The translations under genes and the position numbers were made by a program. DNA of 32,000 bases from Nanobdellota archaeon (lineage in GTDB: Archaea; Nanobdellota; Nanobdellia; Pacearchaeales; GW2011-AR1): contig DAOWGX010000010.1 in the NCBI GenBank assembly GCA_030641715.1, positions 1,819-33,818 on the forward strand, read 5' to 3'. The number at the start of each line of letters is the position of its first letter. Positions within the stretch are counted from its first letter, which is position 1. This document shows positions 2,657 through 32,000 of the stretch, in pieces. The notes beneath the pieces were generated by a model. The model was not told the origin of the DNA. It was given only the letters and a program-made list of their open reading frames with translations, and made no database searches.

Positions 2657-3568
2657 CTACTTTTTCCCCAACTTCACAAAATTATAAGCCGTCCTCGTAG
2701 CTAAAACCCCATCCGCAGCGGCAGTTATTGTCTGCTTAAACGGATTATTCGTCCCATCTCCAGCTGCGAACAAACCTTCAACAGAAGTTCTGCCTTCCTT
2801 ATCAACTTTAATATAACCATTCTCTAATTCAACTCCAAGCCCATCAAAAATTACAGTTAATGGCACAGAACCAACTTCAATAAAAACTCCATCTACATCA
2901 ACCAGCTTAGCCCCATCCAAGGACTCCAACTTTAAACCATTAACATTCTTATCACCTACAATCTCAAGAGGTTTAGAATTATAGATAATCTCAATATTTT
3001 TCATAGCCTCGATCTTTTCCAAATTTATCGGTTCACACCTCATCTTCTCTTTCCGATAACTGATATAAACTTTCTCACAAATACTCGCAAGATAAATCGC
3101 GGCCTTAGCTGCTGAATCAGAACCTCCAATAACAGCCACAATTTTACCTCTAAAAAAATTCCCATCACAAGTTGCACAATATGAAACTCCTTTTCCTAAA
3201 AATTTACCTTCTCCAGGAATGCCTAACTTCCTACGCTCCGACCCAAGACCACTTATAACAGAACTACCAACAAATTTCTTATCACCTACACTAACACAGA
3301 ATCCCTCCTCGACTTTCTCCAACTTATCGATACTTCCAATCTCAAAAACAGCCCCGAATGTCTTCACTTGCTCCTCAAACTTCTTCATTAAATCAATCCC
3401 CGAACCTGTAAATCCTGGATAATTCTCAAACTCTCCAGCAAGATTCGTAGTCCCACCAATCTCCTTCCCAATAATCAAAGTTTTCATACCATAACGCCCA
3501 GCATAAATTGCAGCAGACATTCCAGCAGGACCAGCCCCCAAGATCAACAAATCGTAAATTTCTACCAT
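2657..3568 (-). CDS. trxB: Thioredoxin-disulfide reductase
   Basis: GAGPAGMSAA FAD site, CATCDG redox-active dithiol and GGSDSAAKAA NADPH site. The start is moved from the GTG at 3583 (ORF track) to the first ATG at 3568, which lies 26-27 nt from the TATA box at 3591-3598. Confidence 0.9.
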   Translation of the reverse strand: MVEIYDLLILGAGPAGMSAAIYAGRYGMKTLIIGKEIGGTTNLAGEFENYPGFTGSGIDLMKKFEEQVKTFGAVFEIGSIDKLEKVEEGFCVSVGDKKFVGSSVISGLGSERRKLGIPGEGKFLGKGVSYCATCDGNFFRGKIVAVIGGSDSAAKAAIYLASICEKVYISYRKEKMRCEPINLEKIEAMKNIEIIYNSKPLEIVGDKNVNGLKLESLDGAKLVDVDGVFIEVGSVPLTVIFDGLGVELENGYIKVDKEGRTSVEGLFAAGDGTNNPFKQTITAAADGVLATRTAYNFVKLGKK

Positions 3569-3587
3569 AATAACTTTTAACACTAGA

Positions 3588-3617
3588 CCTTTTTATATCT
3601 TTCAGAATGAACTAAAA
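3588..3617. repeat. Promoter-like direct repeat, copy 1 (CCTTTTTATATCTTTCAGAA..AACTAAAA)
   Basis: Near-identical to 3665-3694, with T5 here versus T6 there. This copy contains the trxB TATA box. Confidence 0.7.
3591..3598 (-). promoter_or_regulatory. TATA box (ATATAAAA on minus strand) for trxB
   Basis: Box centre is about 26.5 nt upstream of ATG 3568. Confidence 0.5.
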
Positions 3618-3664
3618 TAGTTTCTTTTGGTTCCAGGGAGCTTTTCTTTTCTAAAGAAAAGGAG

Positions 3665-3694
3665 CCTTTTTTATATCTTTCAGAAAAAACTAAA
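3665..3694. repeat. Promoter-like direct repeat, copy 2
   Basis: Duplicate of 3588-3617. The two copies are separated by a 9-bp hairpin, CTTTTCTTT-TCT-AAAGAAAAG, at 3641-3661. Confidence 0.7.
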
Positions 3695-3710
3695 TCACCA
3701 ACCAACAACA

Positions 3711-3718
3711 TTTAAATA
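3711..3718 (+). promoter_or_regulatory. TATA box (TTTAAATA) for tyrS
   Basis: Box centre is about 25.5 nt upstream of ATG 3740. Confidence 0.5.
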
Positions 3719-3739
3719 ACTCAGTTCCCAATCCAATAT

Positions 3740-4687
3740 ATGGGCCCAAAAAAGAAGTTAGAACTGATAAAAAGGAACACCGCAGAGGTTTTAAGAGAAG
3801 AAAAATTAAAATCCTCTTTTGGAAAAAAACAACCAATAGTTTATTGTGGATACGAACCTTCTGGAGATTTGCACATAGGCCACTATGTAACTATTCTAAA
3901 ACTAAAAGATTTCGAGGACGCTGGATTCAAAGTTAAAATATTACTGGCAGATTGGCACGCCTTATTAAACAAAAAAGGTGACTGGATTTTCATCAATGAA
4001 CAAGTAGAAAATTGGAAAAAAGCTTTCAAGAAAATTGGACTAAAGAACCCTGAAGTAATTGTCGGAACCAGCTTTCAAAAAAAGCCAGAGTATATCGAAG
4101 ATGTTTTCTCACTTGCCGCAAACTCGACCCTAAATCGAGGAATAAGATCAATGCAAAGTGTAGCTAGAGATATAGACCATGCAAAAGTATCTCAAATTAT
4201 TTACCCTTTTATGCAAGTAGCTGACATGAAAGCATTAAATGTAGACGCCGTCGTTTCCGGAACTGAACAGCGAAAGATTCACATGATTGCCGTCGAAAGT
4301 CTAAAAGACATAAACTATGAAGTCCCCTCATTCGTCCACACTTCATTAATCCCTTCACTCAAGGGTGCCAACGCTGGAAAGATGTCTTCTTCAGACAAGG
4401 GAAGCCTAATCTCTATCAAAGATAGTTCCGAAGAAATAAAGAAGAAAATTTCTAAAGCTTATTGTCCTGAAGGAAAGGAAAACCCTGTTTTAGATATAAC
4501 AAAAATTTTAATCTTCCCAGTATTTGAAAAATTGGAAATCTCTCGTCCTGAAAAATTCGGAGGGGATATAATTTACAATTCTTATAAAGATTTAGAAAAA
4601 GACTTCTTAGATAAAAAACTTCATCCGATGGATTTGAAGAAAGTTATCGGAGAAAAATTATCTGAAATGTTTGAAAAGATTAGATAA
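3740..4687 (+). CDS. tyrS: Tyrosyl-tRNA synthetase, short archaeal type
   Basis: HIGHY (HIGH) and KMSSS signature motifs. At 315 aa it lacks a bacterial-type C-terminal S4-like domain. Confidence 0.9.
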   Translation: MGPKKKLELIKRNTAEVLREEKLKSSFGKKQPIVYCGYEPSGDLHIGHYVTILKLKDFEDAGFKVKILLADWHALLNKKGDWIFINEQVENWKKAFKKIGLKNPEVIVGTSFQKKPEYIEDVFSLAANSTLNRGIRSMQSVARDIDHAKVSQIIYPFMQVADMKALNVDAVVSGTEQRKIHMIAVESLKDINYEVPSFVHTSLIPSLKGANAGKMSSSDKGSLISIKDSSEEIKKKISKAYCPEGKENPVLDITKILIFPVFEKLEISRPEKFGGDIIYNSYKDLEKDFLDKKLHPMDLKKVIGEKLSEMFEKIR

Positions 4688-6875: not shown

Positions 6876-7364
6876 ATGAAACCGAAAATATATGTCGCTA
6901 TAAAGACATTTAACTCTAAAAAAACGGCGTGCCCCAACCAATCTGGAGAATATATCTGTGAGGATAGGGTCTGCCCCAACCTATTAAATATAAATTGTGA
7001 GGGTATTCACAAAGATTGTTTATCCTGTGGAAAAAATATTGAACACCCTCTTTGTCCTGATTGTATCGCAAAAGGTTTCCAACAGTGGATCCAACAATTC
7101 CCCCAAGACAGAGCAAAACTCCAAATAAGATTAGATGAATTCCTAGAAGCACATAGATACCTCGACGGTAAATCTAAAAAATGTATTGCATGCGGAAAAA
7201 ATAACACTCATATCTGCCCATACTGCTTTACAGAATACCTATATAAGATAATTAAAGAGGCTGGTTTAGGGGTTCGAACAATGTCAGAATTTCTATTCAT
7301 CTTCAACTTTGACTTCGATCATCAAGGCTATTCAAAAGAATTAGAAGTCTATGGAGGATACTAA
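6876..7364 (+). CDS. Cysteine-rich zinc-ribbon protein (162 aa)
   Basis: Two CxxC-x7-CxxC motifs (CLSCGKNIEHPLCPDC and CIACGKNNTHICPYC) plus N-terminal CPN..C repeats that coincide with repeat copies A and B. Confidence 0.6.
   Translation: MKPKIYVAIKTFNSKKTACPNQSGEYICEDRVCPNLLNINCEGIHKDCLSCGKNIEHPLCPDCIAKGFQQWIQQFPQDRAKLQIRLDEFLEAHRYLDGKSKKCIACGKNNTHICPYCFTEYLYKIIKEAGLGVRTMSEFLFIFNFDFDHQGYSKELEVYGGY
6931..6963 (+). repeat. Bipartite repeat copy A (GCCCCAACC-N17-TGTGAGG)
   Basis: Inside the zinc-ribbon ORF. The G of GCCCC is at codon position 2. It shares TGCCCCAACCAAT and ATCTGTGAGG with copy C. Confidence 0.75.
6973..7003 (+). repeat. Bipartite repeat copy B (GCCCCAACC-N14-TGTGAGGG)
   Basis: Lies 42 nt after copy A in the same frame. 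It shares GGGTCTGCCCCAACC with copy C, and CTGCCCCAACCTATT and TGTGAGGGTA with copies D and E. Confidence 0.75.
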
Positions 7365-18960: not shown

Positions 18961-20370
18961 ATGAAATCTCCGCGTAAACCAACAAAAACAATCTCAGGCG
19001 TAGCCCCCCTAGCTGTGATGCTCCCTCCGAGAAAATGCGACCACGGCACCTGCCTCTATTGCCCATCCCTAAACGCCCCGCAATCCTACACTCCAGAATC
19101 CCCCGCAGTCCTCCGAGCAAAACAATGCAACTACGACCCTATTAAACAAATCAAAGCCCGATTAAAAGCCTTCGAAGTAATGGGGCACCCAACAGACAAA
19201 ATCGAGCTAATCATCATGGGAGGGACATTTCTGTCTTACCCTAAAGAATTCCAATTCGATTTCATAAAAAAATGTTACGATGCACTAAACCACAAAAAAG
19301 GGTCTGCCCCAACCAATAATAAAAATAAATCTGTGAGGGTAGCAAAATCGTTATCCGAAGCCAAAAAAATAAACGAAAAAACAAAACACCGATGCACAGC
19401 ACTTTGCATAGAAACACGTCCAGACGTTTGCACCGATGAAAATATTAACGATATGCTTGAATGGGGAGCAACACGAGTCGAACTAGGGGTCCAGGCTATC
19501 GACGATGAAATCTATAAAAAAGTAAACAGATGCCACACCGTTCAAGATGTAATCGACGCAACAGCAAGACTAAAAAAAGCAGGATTCAAAATCGGTTACC
19601 ACTTAATGCCCGGTATACCAGGTTCTAACCCAAAAAAAGATATCAAGATGTTTAAAAAAATATTCTCTTCAAAAAATTTCAAACCAGACCAAATAAAAAT
19701 CTACCCTTGCCAAGTTCTGAAAGGAGCAGGAATCGAAAACTTATACTATGGCGGAGAATACATCCCCTACACAAAACAACAAGCTACAAAAATCATAATC
19801 CAGATGTTAAAACTAACTCCGCGATACTGCCGAATCATGCGAATCATGCGGGAAATCCCTCCGAACTACCTCGTTGCCGGAATCAAAAACATCGATCTCA
19901 GAAAAGACATCGAAGAAAAAATCAGGACTAAAAAGATAAAAGTTGACGAAATAAGATTCAGAGAAATTGGTTTTGCACTAAGAGATAAAAGAAAAATTAA
20001 TTCAGAATTAAAACTCAAAATAACAAAATATAAAGCATCCAAAGGAACCGAATTCTTCATTGAAGCAATCAACAAAGACAACATCCTCTTCGGACTTCTT
20101 CGTCTTCGCCTCGACAAAAAAATAGCAACAGTTAGAGAACTTCACATTTACGGCCCAACCTTAAAACTAAACGAAAAAGCAAACAACGCATGGCAACATA
20201 AAGGCTTAGGAAAATTACTAATACAAGAAGCAGAAAAAATTGTAAAGAAGAAAAGTTACAAAAAAATCCGAGTAATCTCGGGGATTGGCGTAAGAGAATA
20301 CTATAAAAAACTAGGCTATAAATTAGATGAAAAGAAAATCTACGTCGAGAAATACTTATCTTTAATATAA
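18961..20370 (+). CDS. elp3: Elp3-type radical SAM / GNAT tRNA-modification enzyme
   Basis: SGVAPLAVML..CDHGTCLYCP radical-SAM cluster motif, IIMGGTF, ETRPD, and a C-terminal GNAT domain (VRELHIYG...QHKGLGKLL). An ATTTAAAC box lies 24.5 nt upstream. The gene contains repeat copy C, and its 3' end is duplicated at 21297-21338. Confidence 0.9.
   Translation: MKSPRKPTKTISGVAPLAVMLPPRKCDHGTCLYCPSLNAPQSYTPESPAVLRAKQCNYDPIKQIKARLKAFEVMGHPTDKIELIIMGGTFLSYPKEFQFDFIKKCYDALNHKKGSAPTNNKNKSVRVAKSLSEAKKINEKTKHRCTALCIETRPDVCTDENINDMLEWGATRVELGVQAIDDEIYKKVNRCHTVQDVIDATARLKKAGFKIGYHLMPGIPGSNPKKDIKMFKKIFSSKNFKPDQIKIYPCQVLKGAGIENLYYGGEYIPYTKQQATKIIIQMLKLTPRYCRIMRIMREIPPNYLVAGIKNIDLRKDIEEKIRTKKIKVDEIRFREIGFALRDKRKINSELKLKITKYKASKGTEFFIEAINKDNILFGLLRLRLDKKIATVRELHIYGPTLKLNEKANNAWQHKGLGKLLIQEAEKIVKKKSYKKIRVISGIGVREYYKKLGYKLDEKKIYVEKYLSLI
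19306..19339 (+). repeat. Bipartite repeat copy C (GCCCCAACC-N17-TGTGAGGG) inside elp3
   Basis: The G of GCCCC is at codon position 1, a different frame from copies A and B. It encodes part of GSAPTNNKNKSVRV. Confidence 0.75.
20320..20359 (+). repeat. Left 40-nt direct repeat (current elp3 3' end)
   Basis: 33/40 identical to 21297-21336, with a perfect 18-nt core AAAATCTACGTCGAGAAA (20335-20352 versus 21312-21329). The offset is exactly 977 nt. Confidence 0.8.
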
Positions 20371-29429: not shown

Positions 29430-29450
29430 AAGAGTTTGAGAAACCGTTTG

Positions 29451-29458
29451 TTTATAAA
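29451..29458 (-). promoter_or_regulatory. TATA box (TTTATAAA) for the giant-protein operon
   Basis: Box centre is 25.5 nt upstream of ATG 29429. Confidence 0.5.
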
Positions 29459-29622
29459 TATTATTATTACCGAAGCTATATCTCGAAGATTTATAGGATT
29501 ACTTTGGAGTGACTAATCTAAAGCACAATATACAACATAACAAAAGAATAAGACCTACAACATCTTGATAAAAACCAAACTCGCAAAAATTCCCAAAAAC
29601 TCAATCCGCTTATCTCCGGTTC

Positions 29623-29853
29623 TCAGCTTCCAGCCCTCTTCAACAAACCATACCGAACCATTCCCTCATAAGTTTTCTCCTTAACCTTCTCGACATTCGG
29701 ATTCGCATAATCTTCATTATTATCCTTAAACCAACCCCTATCATAAAGATTTTCCATAAACAATTCATCAAACCTTTCCTTCTCCTCTCCATCTAACGCA
29801 TCAATCTCTCTCATCGTATCCTCATCCACTACATCCTTAAGAGATTTTTCCAT
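29623..29853 (-). CDS. Small acidic hypothetical protein (76 aa)
   Basis: The start is moved from the GTG at 29859 to ATG 29853, 26.5 nt from the TATA-like box at 29876-29883. Confidence 0.45.
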   Translation of the reverse strand: MEKSLKDVVDEDTMREIDALDGEEKERFDELFMENLYDRGWFKDNNEDYANPNVEKVKEKTYEGMVRYGLLKRAGS

Positions 29854-29875
29854 AAACACCCTACCAACAAAAGGT

Positions 29876-29883
29876 ATTTAAAA
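29876..29883 (-). promoter_or_regulatory. TATA box (TTTTAAAT on minus strand)
   Basis: Box centre is 26.5 nt upstream of ATG 29853. Confidence 0.4.
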
Positions 29884-29902
29884 TTATCCGAAAAATATTA
29901 CT

Positions 29903-29961
29903 ACCCAACCATAGCATGCCCCAACCTATTCTTTAATATATGTGTGAGGGCACAACAAAAC
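29903..29961 (+). repeat. 59-nt direct repeat D (contains the bipartite core GCCCCAACC-N16-TGTGAGGG)
   Basis: 57/59 identical to 31564-31622. The core is at 29918-29950. Confidence 0.85.
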
Positions 29962-30096
29962 AATTAATCCAAACTTTACAATTTTAAAAATCCTAAGCAA
30001 CAACTAACTTACTCCGTTTCGGACAAACAAAAAGCATCATTCACGAAAACAAAAAACCAACCGCCCAAAACAAAAGTAATTACAATAGTAATATTT

Positions 30097-30126
30097 AAAA
30101 ACTGCTTCTACTTATAATAAGTAGAA
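30097..30126 (-). terminator. Hairpin plus T5 downstream of the tRNA-like gene
   Basis: Perfect palindrome TTCTACTTAT-A-ATAAGTAGAA (30106-30126), followed on the minus strand by GCAG and TTTTT (30097-30101). Confidence 0.4.
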
Positions 30127-30132
30127 TATTAA

Positions 30133-30203
30133 TGGACGTGCCGGGAATATAACCCGGATTGAAACCGTTTCAGAGTATTGTACTAACATTGTACGACACG
30201 CCC
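30133..30203 (-). tRNA. Non-canonical tRNA-like gene, anticodon GAA (Phe), with a G3.U70 pair
   Basis: 71-nt cloverleaf. Acceptor stem is GGGCGTG/CACGTCC, followed by U8. D arm is GTAC-AATGTTA-GTAC. Anticodon arm is ATACT-CTGAAAC-GGTTT (U33, GAA, A37; one U.U and one G.U). Variable loop is CAAT. T arm is CCGGG-TTATATT-CCCGG (G53-C61, U54, U55, A58). Discriminator is A73 and there is no encoded CCA. It lacks G18G19 and C56. A TATA box lies 28.5 nt upstream and a hairpin with T5 lies downstream. Confidence 0.5.
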
Positions 30204-30227
30204 ATTAATATGCCTAATTTTTCAATC

Positions 30228-30235
30228 TTTATAAA
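30228..30235 (-). promoter_or_regulatory. TATA box (TTTATAAA) for the tRNA-like gene
   Basis: Box centre is about 28.5 nt upstream of predicted tRNA nucleotide 1 (30203). Confidence 0.45.
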
Positions 30236-30383
30236 CATTAAGAATTAAATCGATATTCATCCCTTACACTTTTTCGATATTCAGCGTTGATAAAAAATCG
30301 TTCATGAAACCATCAAAACTCCTCGCTCGTCCCTCGCTCCCAACTCCCCCTCCAATATCTCCCTCAAAACCCCAAGCATTACG

Positions 30384-30483
30384 TTCCTGCCCAAATACTC
30401 AAAAAAATAACTAAATTCCTGCCGAAATGATTCACTAAATTATCCTCACCGAGAATAAAAAGAAATAATCTTCCTGTCCAAAT
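30384..30483 (+). repeat. Three 13-nt direct repeats TTCCTGYCSAAAT upstream of Fic gene 2
   Basis: Copies lie at 30384-30396, 30416-30428 and 30471-30483. The last abuts the Fic2 TATA box. A separate 10-nt repeat TCGATATTCA lies at 30250-30259 and 30274-30283. Confidence 0.6.
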
Positions 30484-30490
30484 GGTAAAG

Positions 30491-30498
30491 TATTTAAA
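30491..30498 (+). promoter_or_regulatory. TATA box (TATTTAAA) for Fic gene 2
   Basis: Box centre is about 25 nt upstream of ATG 30520. Confidence 0.5.
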
Positions 30499-30519
30499 CT
30501 ATCACTCCTTAAAATAATC

Positions 30520-31464
30520 ATGGCATCAATTGAAGAAAGCAAGAAAGGGACGAACACCTACCTTTCCTTCGCAAAGAAACTAACTTTTATGAACAAACAG
30601 TTTCTCTATAAAAAACATATCGGAAGAAAAATCAAGAATATATCCAAAGAAGAATATATCTTAGACAATTTAAAAGAAATAGTCGAATCAGAATTTGAAT
30701 TTAGAAAAAAGTATTTAGACCAAATAAAAAACAAACTATCCCATAATAAAAACCTACCTGAAAGAATAGAAAAAAAAGCCATAGAGATAATTAATCTGCA
30801 GGAAGGTAATAAATATCCGGAAGCGATAAATTCTGATTTCTCAATTAAATTTATTTATAATTCTAATAATATTGAAGGTTCAAAATTGCCCGAAGAAGAA
30901 GTAAAAAAAATTGTTAAACTTGGAAAAACTAATTATAAAAATGAAAACGAAGCTCGAGAAGCTTTCAATTCGATTGACGCTTTTAATTATCTGGATGACT
31001 TTAATTTTAATATCCCTTCTGTTAAAAGACTCTACAACATCTTAACGAAAAATCTTATAATGGAAAACGGAAACCCCTACCCTAAAGGTTTCAAAAAAAT
31101 AAACGTGATTGTAAACAATTCTCAAACAACACCTCCTGAAAAAGTTGAAAAAGAACTCTATGAATTACTGGACTGGTACAAAAAGAACAGGGGGAAAATT
31201 CATCCGATAATTTTAGCGTTGGACTTTCATTTAAGATATGAACAAATTCATCCATTTAGAGATTGTAATGGCAGAACGGGCAGGATGATTATGAATAAAA
31301 TTTTGATGCAGAATCGATATCCCCCAATAATTGTCTACAAAGAAAATAAATCTGCCTATTTTAATTCAATAGCAAAAGCAAACGAAGGTAACAAGAAAAA
31401 ATATTACCAGTTTATGTTAGAACAGGCCGATAAAAGTTATGATTATATTCGGGAACTTTTTTGA
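30520..31464 (+). CDS. Fic-domain protein, class II-like with an intact catalytic motif
   Basis: HPFRDCNGRTGR matches HPFx(D/E)GNGRxxR except that Gly is replaced by Cys. The upstream SNNIEG fits the inhibitory (S/T)xxxE(G/N) helix motif. Confidence 0.85.
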   Translation: MASIEESKKGTNTYLSFAKKLTFMNKQFLYKKHIGRKIKNISKEEYILDNLKEIVESEFEFRKKYLDQIKNKLSHNKNLPERIEKKAIEIINLQEGNKYPEAINSDFSIKFIYNSNNIEGSKLPEEEVKKIVKLGKTNYKNENEAREAFNSIDAFNYLDDFNFNIPSVKRLYNILTKNLIMENGNPYPKGFKKINVIVNNSQTTPPEKVEKELYELLDWYKKNRGKIHPIILALDFHLRYEQIHPFRDCNGRTGRMIMNKILMQNRYPPIIVYKENKSAYFNSIAKANEGNKKKYYQFMLEQADKSYDYIRELF

Positions 31465-31563
31465 ATTAAAAGACAAACTCCTTGCCCCATTGCCTTCAGA
31501 GTTCCCAATTCTCAGACCGTTCACCCCGTTCGCTCTCATTCCTTTCCCCTTCGCCTAACTCTC

Positions 31564-31622
31564 ACCCAACCATAGCCTGCCCCAACCTATTCTTTAATAT
31601 ATGTGTGAGGGTACAACAAAAC
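31564..31622 (+). repeat. 59-nt direct repeat E
   Basis: 57/59 identical to 29903-29961. The core is at 31579-31611. Confidence 0.85.
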
Positions 31623-31704
31623 TTATATCTCCCAACACCTCATAAAATACATAACCAAAACTTAAAAATAAAAATAAAAAAGAGGAACAAGGTCCTCATT
31701 AAAT

Positions 31705-32000
31705 TTATGTATAAAACCCAAGACCAGCTGGAGACATAGACTTATACGCGACCTCATGACCCCCTTCGCACGGATCATTCGTAAACTCTTGTATTGTCGC
31801 AAAAGCTCCCCAAATCACAGGACCAATTTCAACACCATCTACGGTATACCAAACACTTTCACTCTTGTAAGCATCTTCTGGCACCGCAACAATTTTCACA
31901 AAAGATTCATATTTACAAATTTCTCCGTCTTGTTCATATATTCCTCTCTCATGATTAGTTAACCAAGCCCCATAACAACCAGAATTCACAGGATTATTTG
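31705..32000 (-). CDS. Hypothetical protein, 5' end beyond the window
   Basis: The reading frame stays open upstream of the GTG reported at 31989, through to the window edge. No motif recognised. Confidence 0.4.
   Translation of the reverse strand, partial: NNPVNSGCYGAWLTNHERGIYEQDGEICKYESFVKIVAVPEDAYKSESVWYTVDGVEIGPVIWGAFATIQEFTNDPCEGGHEVAYKSMSPAGLGFYT

What the first reader, a model, noticed from the sequence alone, without database searches (positions are those of the whole stretch)
6931..7003. Short bipartite repeat family GCCCCAACC-N14-17-TGTGAGGG found five times, in ORFs and in spacers
The copies lie at 6931-6963 (A), 6973-7003 (B), 19306-19339 (C, in elp3), 29918-29950 (D) and 31579-31611 (E), all in the same orientation. 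The GC-rich ends are conserved, while the AT-rich centre varies in sequence and in length (14, 16 or 17 nt). There are two subfamilies. A and C share TGCCCCAACCAAT...ATCTGTGAGG. B, D and E share CTGCCCCAACCTATT...TGTGAGGGTA, and B and C also share GGGTCTGCCCCAACC. A and B are 42 nt apart inside the zinc-ribbon ORF and encode CPN..C segments. C lies in a different codon phase, and D and E are intergenic. Conservation at nucleotide level across reading frames points to a DNA- or RNA-level element rather than a protein motif. It is reminiscent of the in-frame Rickettsia palindromic elements. The ends can form only an imperfect stem: three G-C pairs (with a G.T wobble adjoining), a 2x2 mismatch, then two more pairs. 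Alternative readings are a bipartite protein-binding or recombination site, or relic fragments of a CPN..C gene for D and E.
Basis: seen in the sequence. Interest (0 to 1): 0.7.

Follow-up and report, generated by a model that had tools for sequence, protein, structure and literature searches.

The report
Tiny 42-base mobile repeat in archaea
The five motifs are copies of a 42-base (about 39 to 43) repeated DNA element that is scattered through the genomes of tiny DPANN archaea (Pacearchaeota and Woesearchaeota), inserts into itself and, in frame, into essential genes, and always points the same way relative to the strongly skewed DNA strands.

Summary
Exactly five copies lie on the + strand, where chance predicts none. 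A profile built only from copies in other genomes finds these five and nothing else in the window.

The full unit is usually 42 nt: N-R-G-Y-N-T-GCCCCAACC-W-A-T, about 11 A/T-rich bases, then A-T-Y-TGTGAGGGTA. I collected 159 distinct copies from Pacearchaeota, Woesearchaeota and Nanoarchaeota assemblies.

It is a DNA-level mobile repeat, not a protein motif:
- Copy C is an exact 14-codon insert in Elp3. A close orthologue lacks it, and it is modelled as a disordered loop.
- Copies A and B are 14 + 13 codons added to a zinc-ribbon gene whose orthologues carry 0, 1 or 2 units.
- Units sit nested inside other units. Removing exactly 42 nt restores a known intact copy, with no target duplication.
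- Units form tandem arrays.
- Five reading frames are used in unrelated essential genes, and 26 of 27 coding copies are multiples of three.
- Orientation ignores gene direction but follows strand composition in 74 of 80 loci.

This pattern best fits REP- or IS200/IS605-like single-strand "peel and paste" mobilisation in trans. No transposase was found next to the copies, so the enzyme is inferred. I judge it a new variant of a known kind.

The parts
6925..6966 (+). Copy A: a 42-nt unit (CGGCGT-GCCCCAACC-17 nt-TGTGAGG-ATA) inside zinc-ribbon ORF 6876-7364, translated as (T)ACPNQSGEYICED.
   Evidence: Most orthologues lack it and some carry this single unit.
6967..7005 (+). Copy B: a 39-nt unit of another subfamily (GGGTCT...GGGTA), directly head-to-tail after A, translated as RVCPNLLNINCEG.
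   Evidence: It is present only in the window lineage and P0121; the closest one-unit orthologue, L077, lacks these 13 codons.
19300..19341 (+). Copy C: a 42-nt unit inside elp3 (18961-20370), translated in another phase as GSAPTNNKNKSVRV (residues 114-127).
   Evidence: It aligns as a 14-residue gap against solved Elp3 structures 5l7j and 6iad. The site is empty in orthologue L070 and filled in L072. Residues 113-125, within and just before the insert, are the only internal segment with pLDDT < 50 in the model.
29912..29952 (+). Copy D: a 41-nt intergenic unit of the TAGCAT subfamily. The homology shared with E extends over 29903-29961.
   Evidence: It lies 180 nt beyond the 3' end of tRNA-Phe (30132-30204, - strand).
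31573..31613 (+). Copy E: a 41-nt intergenic unit with a core identical to D. The shared homology extends over 31564-31622. It lies 109 nt after the stop of the Fic-domain gene 30520-31464.
6876..7364 (+). Host gene of A and B: a conserved DPANN zinc-ribbon protein of unknown function. The basal form is 135 aa.
18961..20370 (+). Host gene of C: Elp3 (radical SAM/GNAT tRNA-modification enzyme).

Best explanation
The five motifs are copies of a family of very small, non-autonomous mobile DNA repeats that is specific to DPANN archaea of the Pacearchaeota, Woesearchaeota and Nanoarchaeota group. The unit is usually 42 nt. It has a conserved left end (N-R-G-Y-N-T-GCCCCAACC-W-A-T), about 11 variable A/T-rich bases, and a conserved right end (A-T-Y-TGTGAGGGTA). 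Shown: the unit is copied as an exact block into A/T runs (position -1 is A or T; nested insertions are at T|T) without any target-site duplication. It inserts into other units and directly next to them, building arrays. Because 42 = 14 codons and 5 of 6 frames lack a fixed stop, it persists in frame inside essential genes, where it appears to be translated as a 14-residue insert (modelled as a surface loop in Elp3). Presence or absence at one site is scattered among orthologues with exact boundaries. Orientation is independent of transcription but tied to the compositionally skewed strand. Inferred: the unit is mobilised in trans as single-stranded DNA at the replication fork, by precise excision and re-insertion ('peel and paste', as for IS200/IS605 elements and as proposed for REP/RAYT). 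The conserved G/C-rich ends would pair (TGCCC/GGGTA plus AC/GT around a 2x2 mismatch) to bring the two cut sites together. The enzyme has not been identified. The copies in this window are most simply selfish passengers, although D and E may affect neighbouring promoters or 3' ends.
For: Distribution:
- 62 genome loci, about 51 of them in DPANN assemblies, and 84 metagenome loci. Together they hold 159 distinct copies.

Insertion:
- Copy C is a 14-residue gap against solved Elp3 structures. The codon alignment shows an empty site in L070 and a filled site in L072. The two filled copies differ at 2 of 42 nt, while the flanking codons differ more often by inspection.
- The zinc-ribbon orthologues carry 0, 1 or 2 units at one site. 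Filled lineages are scattered in the tree, each next to an empty sister.

Exact boundaries and no duplication:
- There are five nested cases. In three of them (L026, L044, L049), removing exactly N1..A42 restores a centre identical to intact copies elsewhere, and boundaries shifted by 1 nt do not.

Arrays:
- Tandem arrays have periods of 39-42 nt, and several run into contig ends.

Coding copies:
- 26 of 27 coding copies are multiples of 3, against 82 of 132 elsewhere (Fisher p = 2e-4). Five frames are used.
- Hosts include PolD DP2, aminoacyl-tRNA synthetases, a P-type ATPase, Trm5 and an amidase.
- Residues 113-125, which cover most of the Elp3 insert (114-127), are the only internal low-confidence segment of the model.

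Polarity:
- There is no bias relative to genes: 22 against 17, 41 against 37 and 40 against 31.
- Neighbouring clusters in one locus share a strand in 28 of 30 cases (p = 9e-7).
- GC skew is negative on the element's strand in 74 of 80 loci, mean -0.27.

Literature on Y1 transposition:
- It gives precise excision, a circular single-stranded intermediate and targeting of the lagging-strand template (PMC5027513, PMC6006769).
- REPs also occur inside genes in frame (PMC3733652, PMC6006769).
- A REP-associated tyrosine transposase is the only transposase orthologue group with strict hits in 256 Nanobdellota proteomes (bioRxiv 10.64898/2026.05.13.725050).
Against: - No Y1 or RAYT gene lies next to any copy. 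The L033 flanks, which I read, look unrelated to the element; I did not inspect the ends of the L087 copy.
- The REP hallmark GT[AG]G is absent.
- The stem is short (5 + 2 bp) and closes a loop of about 19 nt. Folding energies do not differ from shuffles.
- No specific 4-5 nt target was found, only A/T runs.
- Replication direction was inferred from GC skew only. The polarity of skew in these archaea has not been established.
- Conservation of the end blocks is partly imposed by my search patterns.
Confidence: 0.55

Rival explanations
1. It is an RNA-level element: a mini-intron or processing site cut by the archaeal tRNA-splicing endonuclease (EndA). It would spread like mobile bulge-helix-bulge introns and be removed from transcripts.
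For: In at least 10 loci from different genomes (EndA 62-80% identical), a unit or array begins at the endA stop codon (the TAG of TAGCAT) and is followed by the same downstream gene. An eleventh locus (L104) shows the other end of such an array. On the antisense strand some copies can form a bulge(3)-helix(4)-bulge(3) arrangement that uses the conserved CCCU/GGGG core.
Against: Orientation is unbiased relative to transcription in coding, upstream and downstream positions. The outer helix of the motif depends on the flanks; I estimate it forms in about 13% of copies, from the flank base frequencies. No canonical motif exists on the sense strand of A, B, C or D. Coding copies are stop-free multiples of three, which RNA removal would not require. 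The intron I predicted by hand (nt 6-36, 31 nt) would shift the frame. There is no Rfam match and no fold signal. Other conserved loci hold arrays too, for example EF-1beta/HIT and sites downstream of tRNA-Gln, so endA is not unique.
Confidence: 0.07
2. It is a selected, polar DNA signal: a bipartite binding site for a host protein that acts relative to replication direction (comparable to KOPS or Chi sites, or to fork-pausing sites). Copies are kept because they function, and mobility is incidental.
For: Orientation is strongly tied to strand skew. Two conserved blocks are separated by a fixed-length A/T spacer, and the positions G3, T6, A17, A30 and T31, which lay outside my search pattern, are invariant or nearly so. 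The element's position is conserved in several intergenic regions across genomes. The elp3 copy differs at only 2 of 42 nt between orthologues that are 82% identical as proteins.
Against: Copy number varies widely between genomes: 2 exact matches in a 965-kb contig against more than 40 in one assembly. Old copies decay freely, for example in P0129, P0131 and P0156. Nested and tandem exact-unit insertions and the presence/absence polymorphism need a copying mechanism in any case. No candidate binding protein was found.
Confidence: 0.15
3. It is a repeated protein motif: a CPN-x5-6-CEG zinc knuckle that spreads by duplication of coding sequence. D and E would be relics of such genes.
For: A and B encode Cys pairs inside a zinc-ribbon protein.
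Against: The same DNA is read as GSAPT..SVRV, VCPN..CEG, PSQ..LGQT, TLT..GAD and YPH..GWGRP in different hosts. Most copies are intergenic. Orthologues without the unit are the majority. The Cys codon decays to Tyr in some lineages.
Confidence: 0.01
4. It is a CRISPR-like or integron-attC-like array: a 25-nt junction repeat (TGTGAGGGTA-N5-TGCCCCAACC) separating short 'spacers', or recombination sites for a tyrosine recombinase.
For: Arrays of conserved junctions with variable centres exist (L123, L147). The left box resembles the attC R'' box RYYYAAC with one extra C (my own comparison, from memory of the attC consensus).
Against: The centres are only 11-17 nt, are often identical along an array, and fall into a few subfamilies. 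No cas or intI genes appeared among the neighbours. No gene cassettes lie between units. The unit boundaries defined by nesting do not fall in the AAC/GTT box where integron crossover occurs.
Confidence: 0.03

Closest known systems
REP/BIME elements and their RAYT (TnpA-REP) transposases in bacteria
   Same: Both are short (20-40 nt) dispersed repeats with a G/C-rich stem foot, a conserved short motif 5' of the foot, internal mismatches, clusters or mosaics with other repeat modules, occasional in-frame copies inside genes, and no target duplication (PMC3733652, PMC6006769, PMC3333891).
   Different: This family is archaeal. It has NRGY-N instead of GT[AG]G, and a very short stem closing a loop of about 19 nt. 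Its arrays are head-to-tail rather than inverted doublets. About 17% of copies, under my strict criterion, lie inside long ORFs. No RAYT gene flanked by the repeat was found.
IS200/IS605 single-strand transposition and its non-autonomous derivatives (PATEs)
   Same: No terminal inverted repeats, no target duplication, precise excision, and an orientation bias linked to the replication strand (PMC5027513).
   Different: At 42 nt it is far below any known derivative. There is one shared end-to-end stem instead of two subterminal hairpins, no defined 4-5 nt target, and no autonomous partner with matching ends. The IS200 copy in L033 has unrelated flanks; I did not inspect the ends of the one in L087.
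Small dispersed repeats (SDR) of cyanobacteria (Elhai et al. 2008, Genome Res 18:1484; the citation appears in the reference list of PMC3116915, the content is from my own knowledge)
   Same: Very small units with conserved ends and variable interiors, found nested in one another, in tandem, and in both coding and non-coding DNA. The mobilising enzyme is unknown.
   Different: The sequences are unrelated and the host is bacterial. As far as I know, strand polarity and a 14-codon in-frame module have not been described there.
Rickettsia palindromic elements (RPE)
   Same: Both insert in frame into unrelated housekeeping genes and are translated as extra peptide segments (PMC10969869).
   Different: RPEs are about 100-150 bp and clearly palindromic. 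This unit is 42 nt with only a weak stem, it forms arrays and nests, and it is archaeal.
Archaeal bulge-helix-bulge introns (tRNA, rRNA, cbf5 mRNA)
   Same: Both are short insertions in archaeal genes. The most widely conserved locus found abuts the splicing endonuclease gene.
   Different: There is no conserved bulge-helix-bulge motif and no transcription-strand bias, and coding copies look translated.

Membership tests
REP/RAYT (REPtron) system | Short, imperfectly palindromic repeat present in many dispersed copies. | tested here: inconclusive
   It is dispersed and high in copy number. The palindrome is only TGCCC/GGGTA plus AC/GT, and the fold z-scores are not significant.
REP/RAYT (REPtron) system | Conserved GT[AG]G (or CGTC) tetranucleotide at the foot of the hairpin. 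| tested here: not met
   The left end is N-R-G-Y-N-T (G3 in 76 of 78 units, T6 in 78 of 78). There is no GTAG, GTGG or CGTC.
REP/RAYT (REPtron) system | A cognate Y1 transposase gene flanked by the repeats. | tested here: not met
Whole genomes were not available, so a distant single-copy gene is not excluded.
IS200/IS605-type single-strand transposable element | No terminal inverted repeats and no target-site duplication; exact boundaries. | tested here: met
   In nested copies, removing exactly 42 nt restores centres identical to intact copies; boundaries shifted by 1 nt do not.
IS200/IS605-type single-strand transposable element | Orientation biased relative to the replication strand (lagging-strand template). 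| tested here: met
   Orientation follows GC and AT skew in 74 and 70 of 80 loci, and it is locally coherent in 28 of 30 pairs. Skew is only a proxy for replication direction.
IS200/IS605-type single-strand transposable element | Subterminal hairpins at both ends and a specific 4-5 nt target next to the left end. | tested here: not met
   There is one end-to-end stem only. The target is an A/T run (position -1 is A or T in 94% of copies, +1 is T in 51%) with no fixed tetranucleotide.
MITE (miniature inverted-repeat transposable element) | Terminal inverted repeats of 15-30 bp and target-site duplications; 70-300 bp long. | tested here: not met
   The unit is 42 nt, the two ends match at 5 of 8 positions at best as inverted repeats (my own comparison of the sequences), and there is no duplication.
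Rickettsia palindromic elements | In-frame insertion into unrelated protein genes. | tested here: met
Rickettsia palindromic elements | Palindromic unit of about 100-150 bp; Rickettsia lineage. | tested here: not met
   The unit is 39-43 nt and the hosts are DPANN archaea.
Archaeal bulge-helix-bulge intron | Helix, 3-nt bulge, 4-bp helix, 3-nt bulge, helix formed in the transcript. | tested here: not met
   Enumeration finds none on the sense strand of A/B (in the element's register), C or D, and only flank-dependent ones on the antisense strand. Orientation shows no bias relative to transcription.
CRISPR array | Repeats of 24-48 nt separating unique spacers of similar length, with cas genes and a leader. 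| tested here: not met
   The variable part is 11-17 nt and is often identical along an array. No cas-like gene family recurred among the neighbours.
Cyanobacterial small dispersed repeats (SDR) | Very small units with conserved ends, found nested, in tandem and in coding DNA (features from my own knowledge of Elhai et al. 2008). | tested here: met
   Nesting, tandem arrays and coding copies are all shown here. SDR is a descriptive class; I saw no obvious sequence resemblance, from memory of the SDR sequences.

The most novel reading that the evidence does not exclude
A previously undescribed kind of archaeal mini-mobile element. A 42-nt (14-codon) module is propagated on single-stranded DNA at the replication fork by an enzyme that is not a recognisable RAYT or IS200 transposase, or by a process linked to the tRNA-splicing endonuclease locus where arrays are most widely conserved. 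It continually adds and precisely removes 14-residue loops in essential proteins of DPANN archaea.
Probability: 0.25. Interest if true: 0.85.

Novelty: new variant of a known kind. Interest (0 to 1): 0.62.

Why it matters
DPANN archaea have tiny, gene-dense genomes that are usually thought to be poor in mobile DNA. This work shows a repeat family, together with signs of several others, that is small enough and phased so as to survive inside essential genes such as DNA polymerase D, aminoacyl-tRNA synthetases and Elp3.

Practical consequences:
- It creates lineage-specific 14-residue inserts that confuse alignments and gene calls.
- Its arrays appear to break metagenome assemblies, since several arrays stop at contig ends.
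- It can serve as a sharp marker of strain history.

Its strict strand polarity, seen against an unusually strong strand skew, offers a way to study replication direction and single-strand DNA transactions in uncultured archaea. It could also lead to a new DNA-processing enzyme.

Tried and rejected
- Rfam. The gathering-threshold scan of the whole window and a permissive scan over A and B found only tRNA-Phe and one chance hit.
- RNA folding of each copy on both strands. No z-score was below -1.4.
- Covariation. It cannot be judged, because the paired columns were fixed by my search patterns. The positions just outside the stem show no pairing.
- K-turn, box C/D and promoter or terminator readings. 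I considered these by eye and dropped them. There is no second G.A pair and no box motifs. TATA-like centres occur, but no gene lies downstream of D or E.
- Transposase next to copies. None found. The HUH..Y regex also found nothing.
- Recurrent neighbour genes. Clustering gave Elp3, a Fic protein, a family of about 480 aa that I did not run through Pfam, PolD and EF-1beta/HIT, but no nuclease or recombinase.
- The endA link. I pursued it and judged it most likely an old conserved insertion site.
- Gene X downstream of endA. It has no family match, only a non-significant winged-helix (Z-alpha) resemblance.
- D and E as ends of a cassette carrying tRNA-Phe and Fic. Fic genes lie near units in three genomes, but in different arrangements.
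- Literature. No paper holds the motif in a relevant context or describes such repeats in DPANN. One search was wasted on overly general terms. Elhai et al. 2008 is not held in the library.
Full report

Yes. GCCCCAACC-N10-24-TGTGAGG occurs five times in the window, always on the + strand, at the stated coordinates. None of 100 dinucleotide-preserving shuffles produced a match.

Reading the sequence and aligning the copies shows that the conserved block is longer than reported. Six bases (N-R-G-Y-N-T) precede GCCCCAACC, and GTA follows TGTGAGG. The units are therefore A 6925-6966 (42 nt), B 6967-7005 (39 nt), C 19300-19341 (42 nt), D 29912-29952 (41 nt) and E 31573-31613 (41 nt). D and E also share a 59-nt stretch with two mismatches.

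A profile HMM built from 78 distinct 42-nt units taken only from other genomes finds exactly these five copies (E = 7e-15 to 6e-6). It finds nothing else in the window at E <= 10.

**2. What organism is this?**

The window encodes an archaeal-type ThrRS with the archaea-specific editing domain, Elp3 and other genes. The zinc-ribbon ORF is found identically on contigs of assembly GCA_030637285.1 and of several metagenomes. A protein 99% identical to it is named Candidatus Pacearchaeota archaeon.

**3. How widespread is the motif?**

One scan of 185,579 species-representative genomes used GCCCCAACCWAT-N9-16-TGTGAGG. It returned 62 loci. About 51 are in assemblies labelled Woesearchaeota, Pacearchaeota, Nanoarchaeota or 'archaeon'. 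The other 11 are single hits whose centres are mostly not A/T-rich and which lack the NRGYNT and GTA extensions: nine in bacteria, one in a Bathyarchaeota assembly and one in a Methanobacteriota assembly. One assembly (JAUWIJ01) has more than 40 copies in the stretches fetched.

A metagenome scan with GCCCCAACC-N12-18-TGTGAGGGTA gave 84 more loci. Together they hold 159 distinct copies.

The unit length is 42 nt in 88 of 149 fully flanked copies. The rest are 41 (33), 39 (12), 43 (10), 40 (4) and 38 (2) nt. These figures are the printed lengths minus one, to correct a counting slip in that script.

Some positions were not fixed by my search patterns yet are almost invariant: G3, T6, A17, A30 and T31. 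Only positions 19-29 vary freely, and the centre is 86% A+T.

**4. It is inserted DNA, not an ancestral protein motif.**

*Elp3.* Against the solved Elp3 structures 5l7j and 6iad, the window protein has a single 14-residue insertion exactly at copy C. In a codon alignment, the orthologue on L070 (86% identical in the alignment) lacks precisely these 14 codons. The orthologue on L072 (82%) has them. The two filled copies differ at 2 of 42 nt, whereas the flanking codons differ more often by inspection. An AlphaFold2 model (mean pLDDT 79.7) has only one internal segment below pLDDT 50. This is residues 113-125, which cover most of the insert (residues 114-127), in a coil between helices 95-109 and 131-138.

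*Zinc-ribbon ORF.* Of 46 homologues, most are 134-136 aa with no unit. Eight carry one unit (CPNQSKxYICEG, variously decayed). Only the window and its near-identical relative carry two. On a neighbour-joining tree made without the insert columns, the filled lineages are scattered, each beside an empty sister. The DNA shows the empty site AAAA|TT and the filled site AAAA|CGGCGT...GGGTA|TT, with no duplication. Older copies show decay, for example TGC to TAC and CCC to CCT.

*Frames and hosts.* 27 copies lie inside ORFs of at least 200 aa, in both orientations and in five of the six frames. The sixth frame has a fixed TGA. Of these, 26 are multiples of three, against 82 of 132 elsewhere (Fisher p = 2e-4). 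The hosts are unrelated: DNA polymerase D large subunit (three units), a class I aminoacyl-tRNA synthetase, MetRS, a P-type ATPase, Trm5/Tyw2, a PP-loop ATPase and an amidase.

**5. Evidence that it moves as an exact block.**

Five units sit inside the centre of another unit, in the same orientation. In three of them (L026, L044, L049), deleting exactly N1..A42 (42 nt) restores a centre identical to intact copies found elsewhere. Deleting with boundaries shifted by one base never does. So there is no target-site duplication, and there are no terminal inverted repeats.

Nested insertions are at T|T. In isolated copies the base before the unit is A or T in 94% and the base after it is T in 51%.

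Units also stand head-to-tail. A and B do so here. Elsewhere there are arrays with periods of 39-42 nt, with either identical or alternating centres, and several run into contig ends, so they probably break assemblies.

**6. Polarity.**

Orientation is not related to gene direction:
- coding copies: 22 sense, 17 antisense;
- downstream of genes: 41 against 37;
- upstream of genes: 40 against 31.

Yet neighbouring clusters more than 300 nt apart in one locus share a strand in 28 of 30 cases (p = 9e-7).

On the strand that reads GCCCCAACC...TGTGAGGG, the surrounding DNA (units masked) has negative GC skew in 74 of 80 loci (mean -0.27). It has positive AT skew in 70 of 80 loci.

The window itself has GC skew -0.28, negative in 29 of 32 one-kb bins. 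It is weaker where genes lie on the + strand and stronger where they lie on the - strand.

The two strands of the unit carry about the same number of C residues, by my count of the consensus. Strand-specific decay therefore cannot explain the bias.

**7. Mechanism.**

The combination is: exact boundaries, no duplication, no inverted repeats, scattered exact presence or absence at one site, and orientation tied to the replication-skewed strand rather than to transcription. This is the signature of single-strand 'peel and paste' transposition by Y1 HUH enzymes. Those show precise excision, a circular single-stranded intermediate and targeting of the lagging-strand template (PMC5027513, PMC6006769). 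It is also the signature proposed for REP elements mobilised in trans by RAYT, which also occur in frame inside genes (PMC3733652, PMC6006769).

A recent preprint reports that a REP-associated tyrosine transposase (K07491) is the only transposase orthologue group with strict hits in 256 Nanobdellota proteomes.

If the G-rich strand is the lagging-strand template, as in archaea whose origins have been mapped (established knowledge, untested for DPANN), the active strand would be the complement: 5'-TACCCTCACA...GGTTGGGGCA.

These steps are inference. Neither is next to a unit, and no RAYT-like ORF was found. The GT[AG]G hallmark of REPs is absent. The stem is weak. No specific tetranucleotide target emerged.

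I therefore put about 0.9 on 'mobile DNA-level mini-repeat that inserts in frame'. I put about 0.4 on the single-strand Y1-like route specifically.

**8. Rival readings.**

*RNA element cut by the splicing endonuclease.* This was taken seriously. In at least ten loci from different genomes, a unit or array starts at the stop codon of endA (TIGR00324, 101.8 bits) and is followed by the same downstream gene. However:
- a systematic search finds no canonical bulge-helix-bulge motif on the sense strand, and only flank-dependent ones on the antisense strand;
- orientation ignores transcription;
- coding copies are stop-free multiples of three;
- other conserved intergenic sites hold arrays too.

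*Polar functional DNA site.* This is not excluded and could coexist with mobility.

*Protein motif, CRISPR-like array and integron attC.* All three are rejected; see the rival explanations.

**9. Comparison with known systems, and novelty.**

The nearest known things are bacterial REP/BIME-RAYT systems, IS200/IS605 derivatives, the cyanobacterial small dispersed repeats of Elhai et al. 2008 (nested, tandem, enzyme unknown) and the Rickettsia palindromic elements (in-frame insertion).

The DPANN element works like these. It fails the defining tests for membership of each sequence-defined family: no GT[AG]G, no flanking RAYT, no TIR or TSD, and a size three-fold below RPEs.

I found no description of it in the searchable literature. 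I rate it a new variant of a known kind, of moderate to high interest.

Noticed in passing
window 1-32000 (and 74 of 80 related loci): The strand compositional asymmetry is very strong. GC skew is -0.28 over the whole window and negative in 29 of 32 one-kb bins whichever strand the genes are on. It is about -0.45 over - strand genes and about -0.1 over + strand genes. AT skew is about +0.14. Related DPANN loci average -0.27. To my knowledge this is much stronger than usual replication skews.
   Followed up: partly
L105:649-1310, L157, L130, L052, L088/L104, L096, L126, L132, L154, L156: There is a conserved locus across genomes. The tRNA-splicing endonuclease gene endA ends in the TAG of the unit's TAGCAT. 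One to many tandem units follow, then TATAAATATATTTATAACTCCC and a 335-aa gene that matches no family and that I judge, by eye, to have a winged-helix-like N-terminus. In one genome the array is long enough to split the assembly (L088 and L104). The 5' extension CCAACCATAGCAT of window copies D and E resembles the endA 3' end.
   Followed up: partly
Elp3 orthologues P0012-P0106 (alignment): Other DPANN Elp3 proteins carry different in-frame inserts. Some appear to derive from other short repeats: I read NPKSQIP and TTDHRPP as translations of the heptamer repeats AATCCCA and CCGACCA. A 20-39 residue element (RSFHGSPKQVFLLARNFFFLK) recurs, apparently at more than one position, in at least five orthologues. 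The 42-nt unit also occurs at the N-terminus (P0012) and near residue 408 (P0104).
   Followed up: no
L028:2300-2800, L043:3280-3480, L065:1285-1660 and 3500-3820: In assembly JAUWIJ01 the intergenic regions are mosaics of several repeat modules: heptamers GAGTTCT and CCGACCA, CCGACCAGCGAAGCGTCCGA, and TCTAAGAGCGAATGAAATGAGCGGTCTGAG. These often flank the 42-nt unit. A 130-nt inverted repeat that contains a unit brackets a 598-aa gene whose product looks secreted from its sequence (L065:1662-3458).
   Followed up: partly
window 29430-32000 with L007, compared with L070:9159-9415: D and E bracket tRNA-Phe (30132-30204, - strand) and a Fic-domain gene (30520-31464). This lies within a segment of about 3 kb (a 78-aa ORF, tRNA-Phe, the Fic gene and a 230-aa ORF) that is absent between the same flanking genes in relative L070. 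Fic genes also lie next to units in L015 and L032, but in different arrangements.
   Followed up: partly
L033:210-707 and L087:5805-6224: Two ordinary IS200-type Y1 transposase genes occur in DPANN contigs (the L033 gene matches PF01797 at E = 7e-30; the L087 gene was detected only with my memory-typed probes). They lie 7 kb and 2.5 kb from the nearest unit. The L033 flanks show no resemblance to the unit; I did not inspect the L087 ends.
   Followed up: yes
L011:1464-1596, L029:1047-1178, L085, L141, L060:3522-3654: Units recur 22-30 nt beyond the 3' end of tRNA genes (tRNA-Gln in four loci, tRNA-Gly in one), in either orientation. Next to tRNA-Gln there is a perfect 7-bp palindrome, TCGAACC-T-GGTTCGA.
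   Followed up: no
L065:3920-7081 (- strand): A 1054-aa ORF that hosts an in-frame unit also contains an intein with a LAGLIDADG domain.
   Followed up: no
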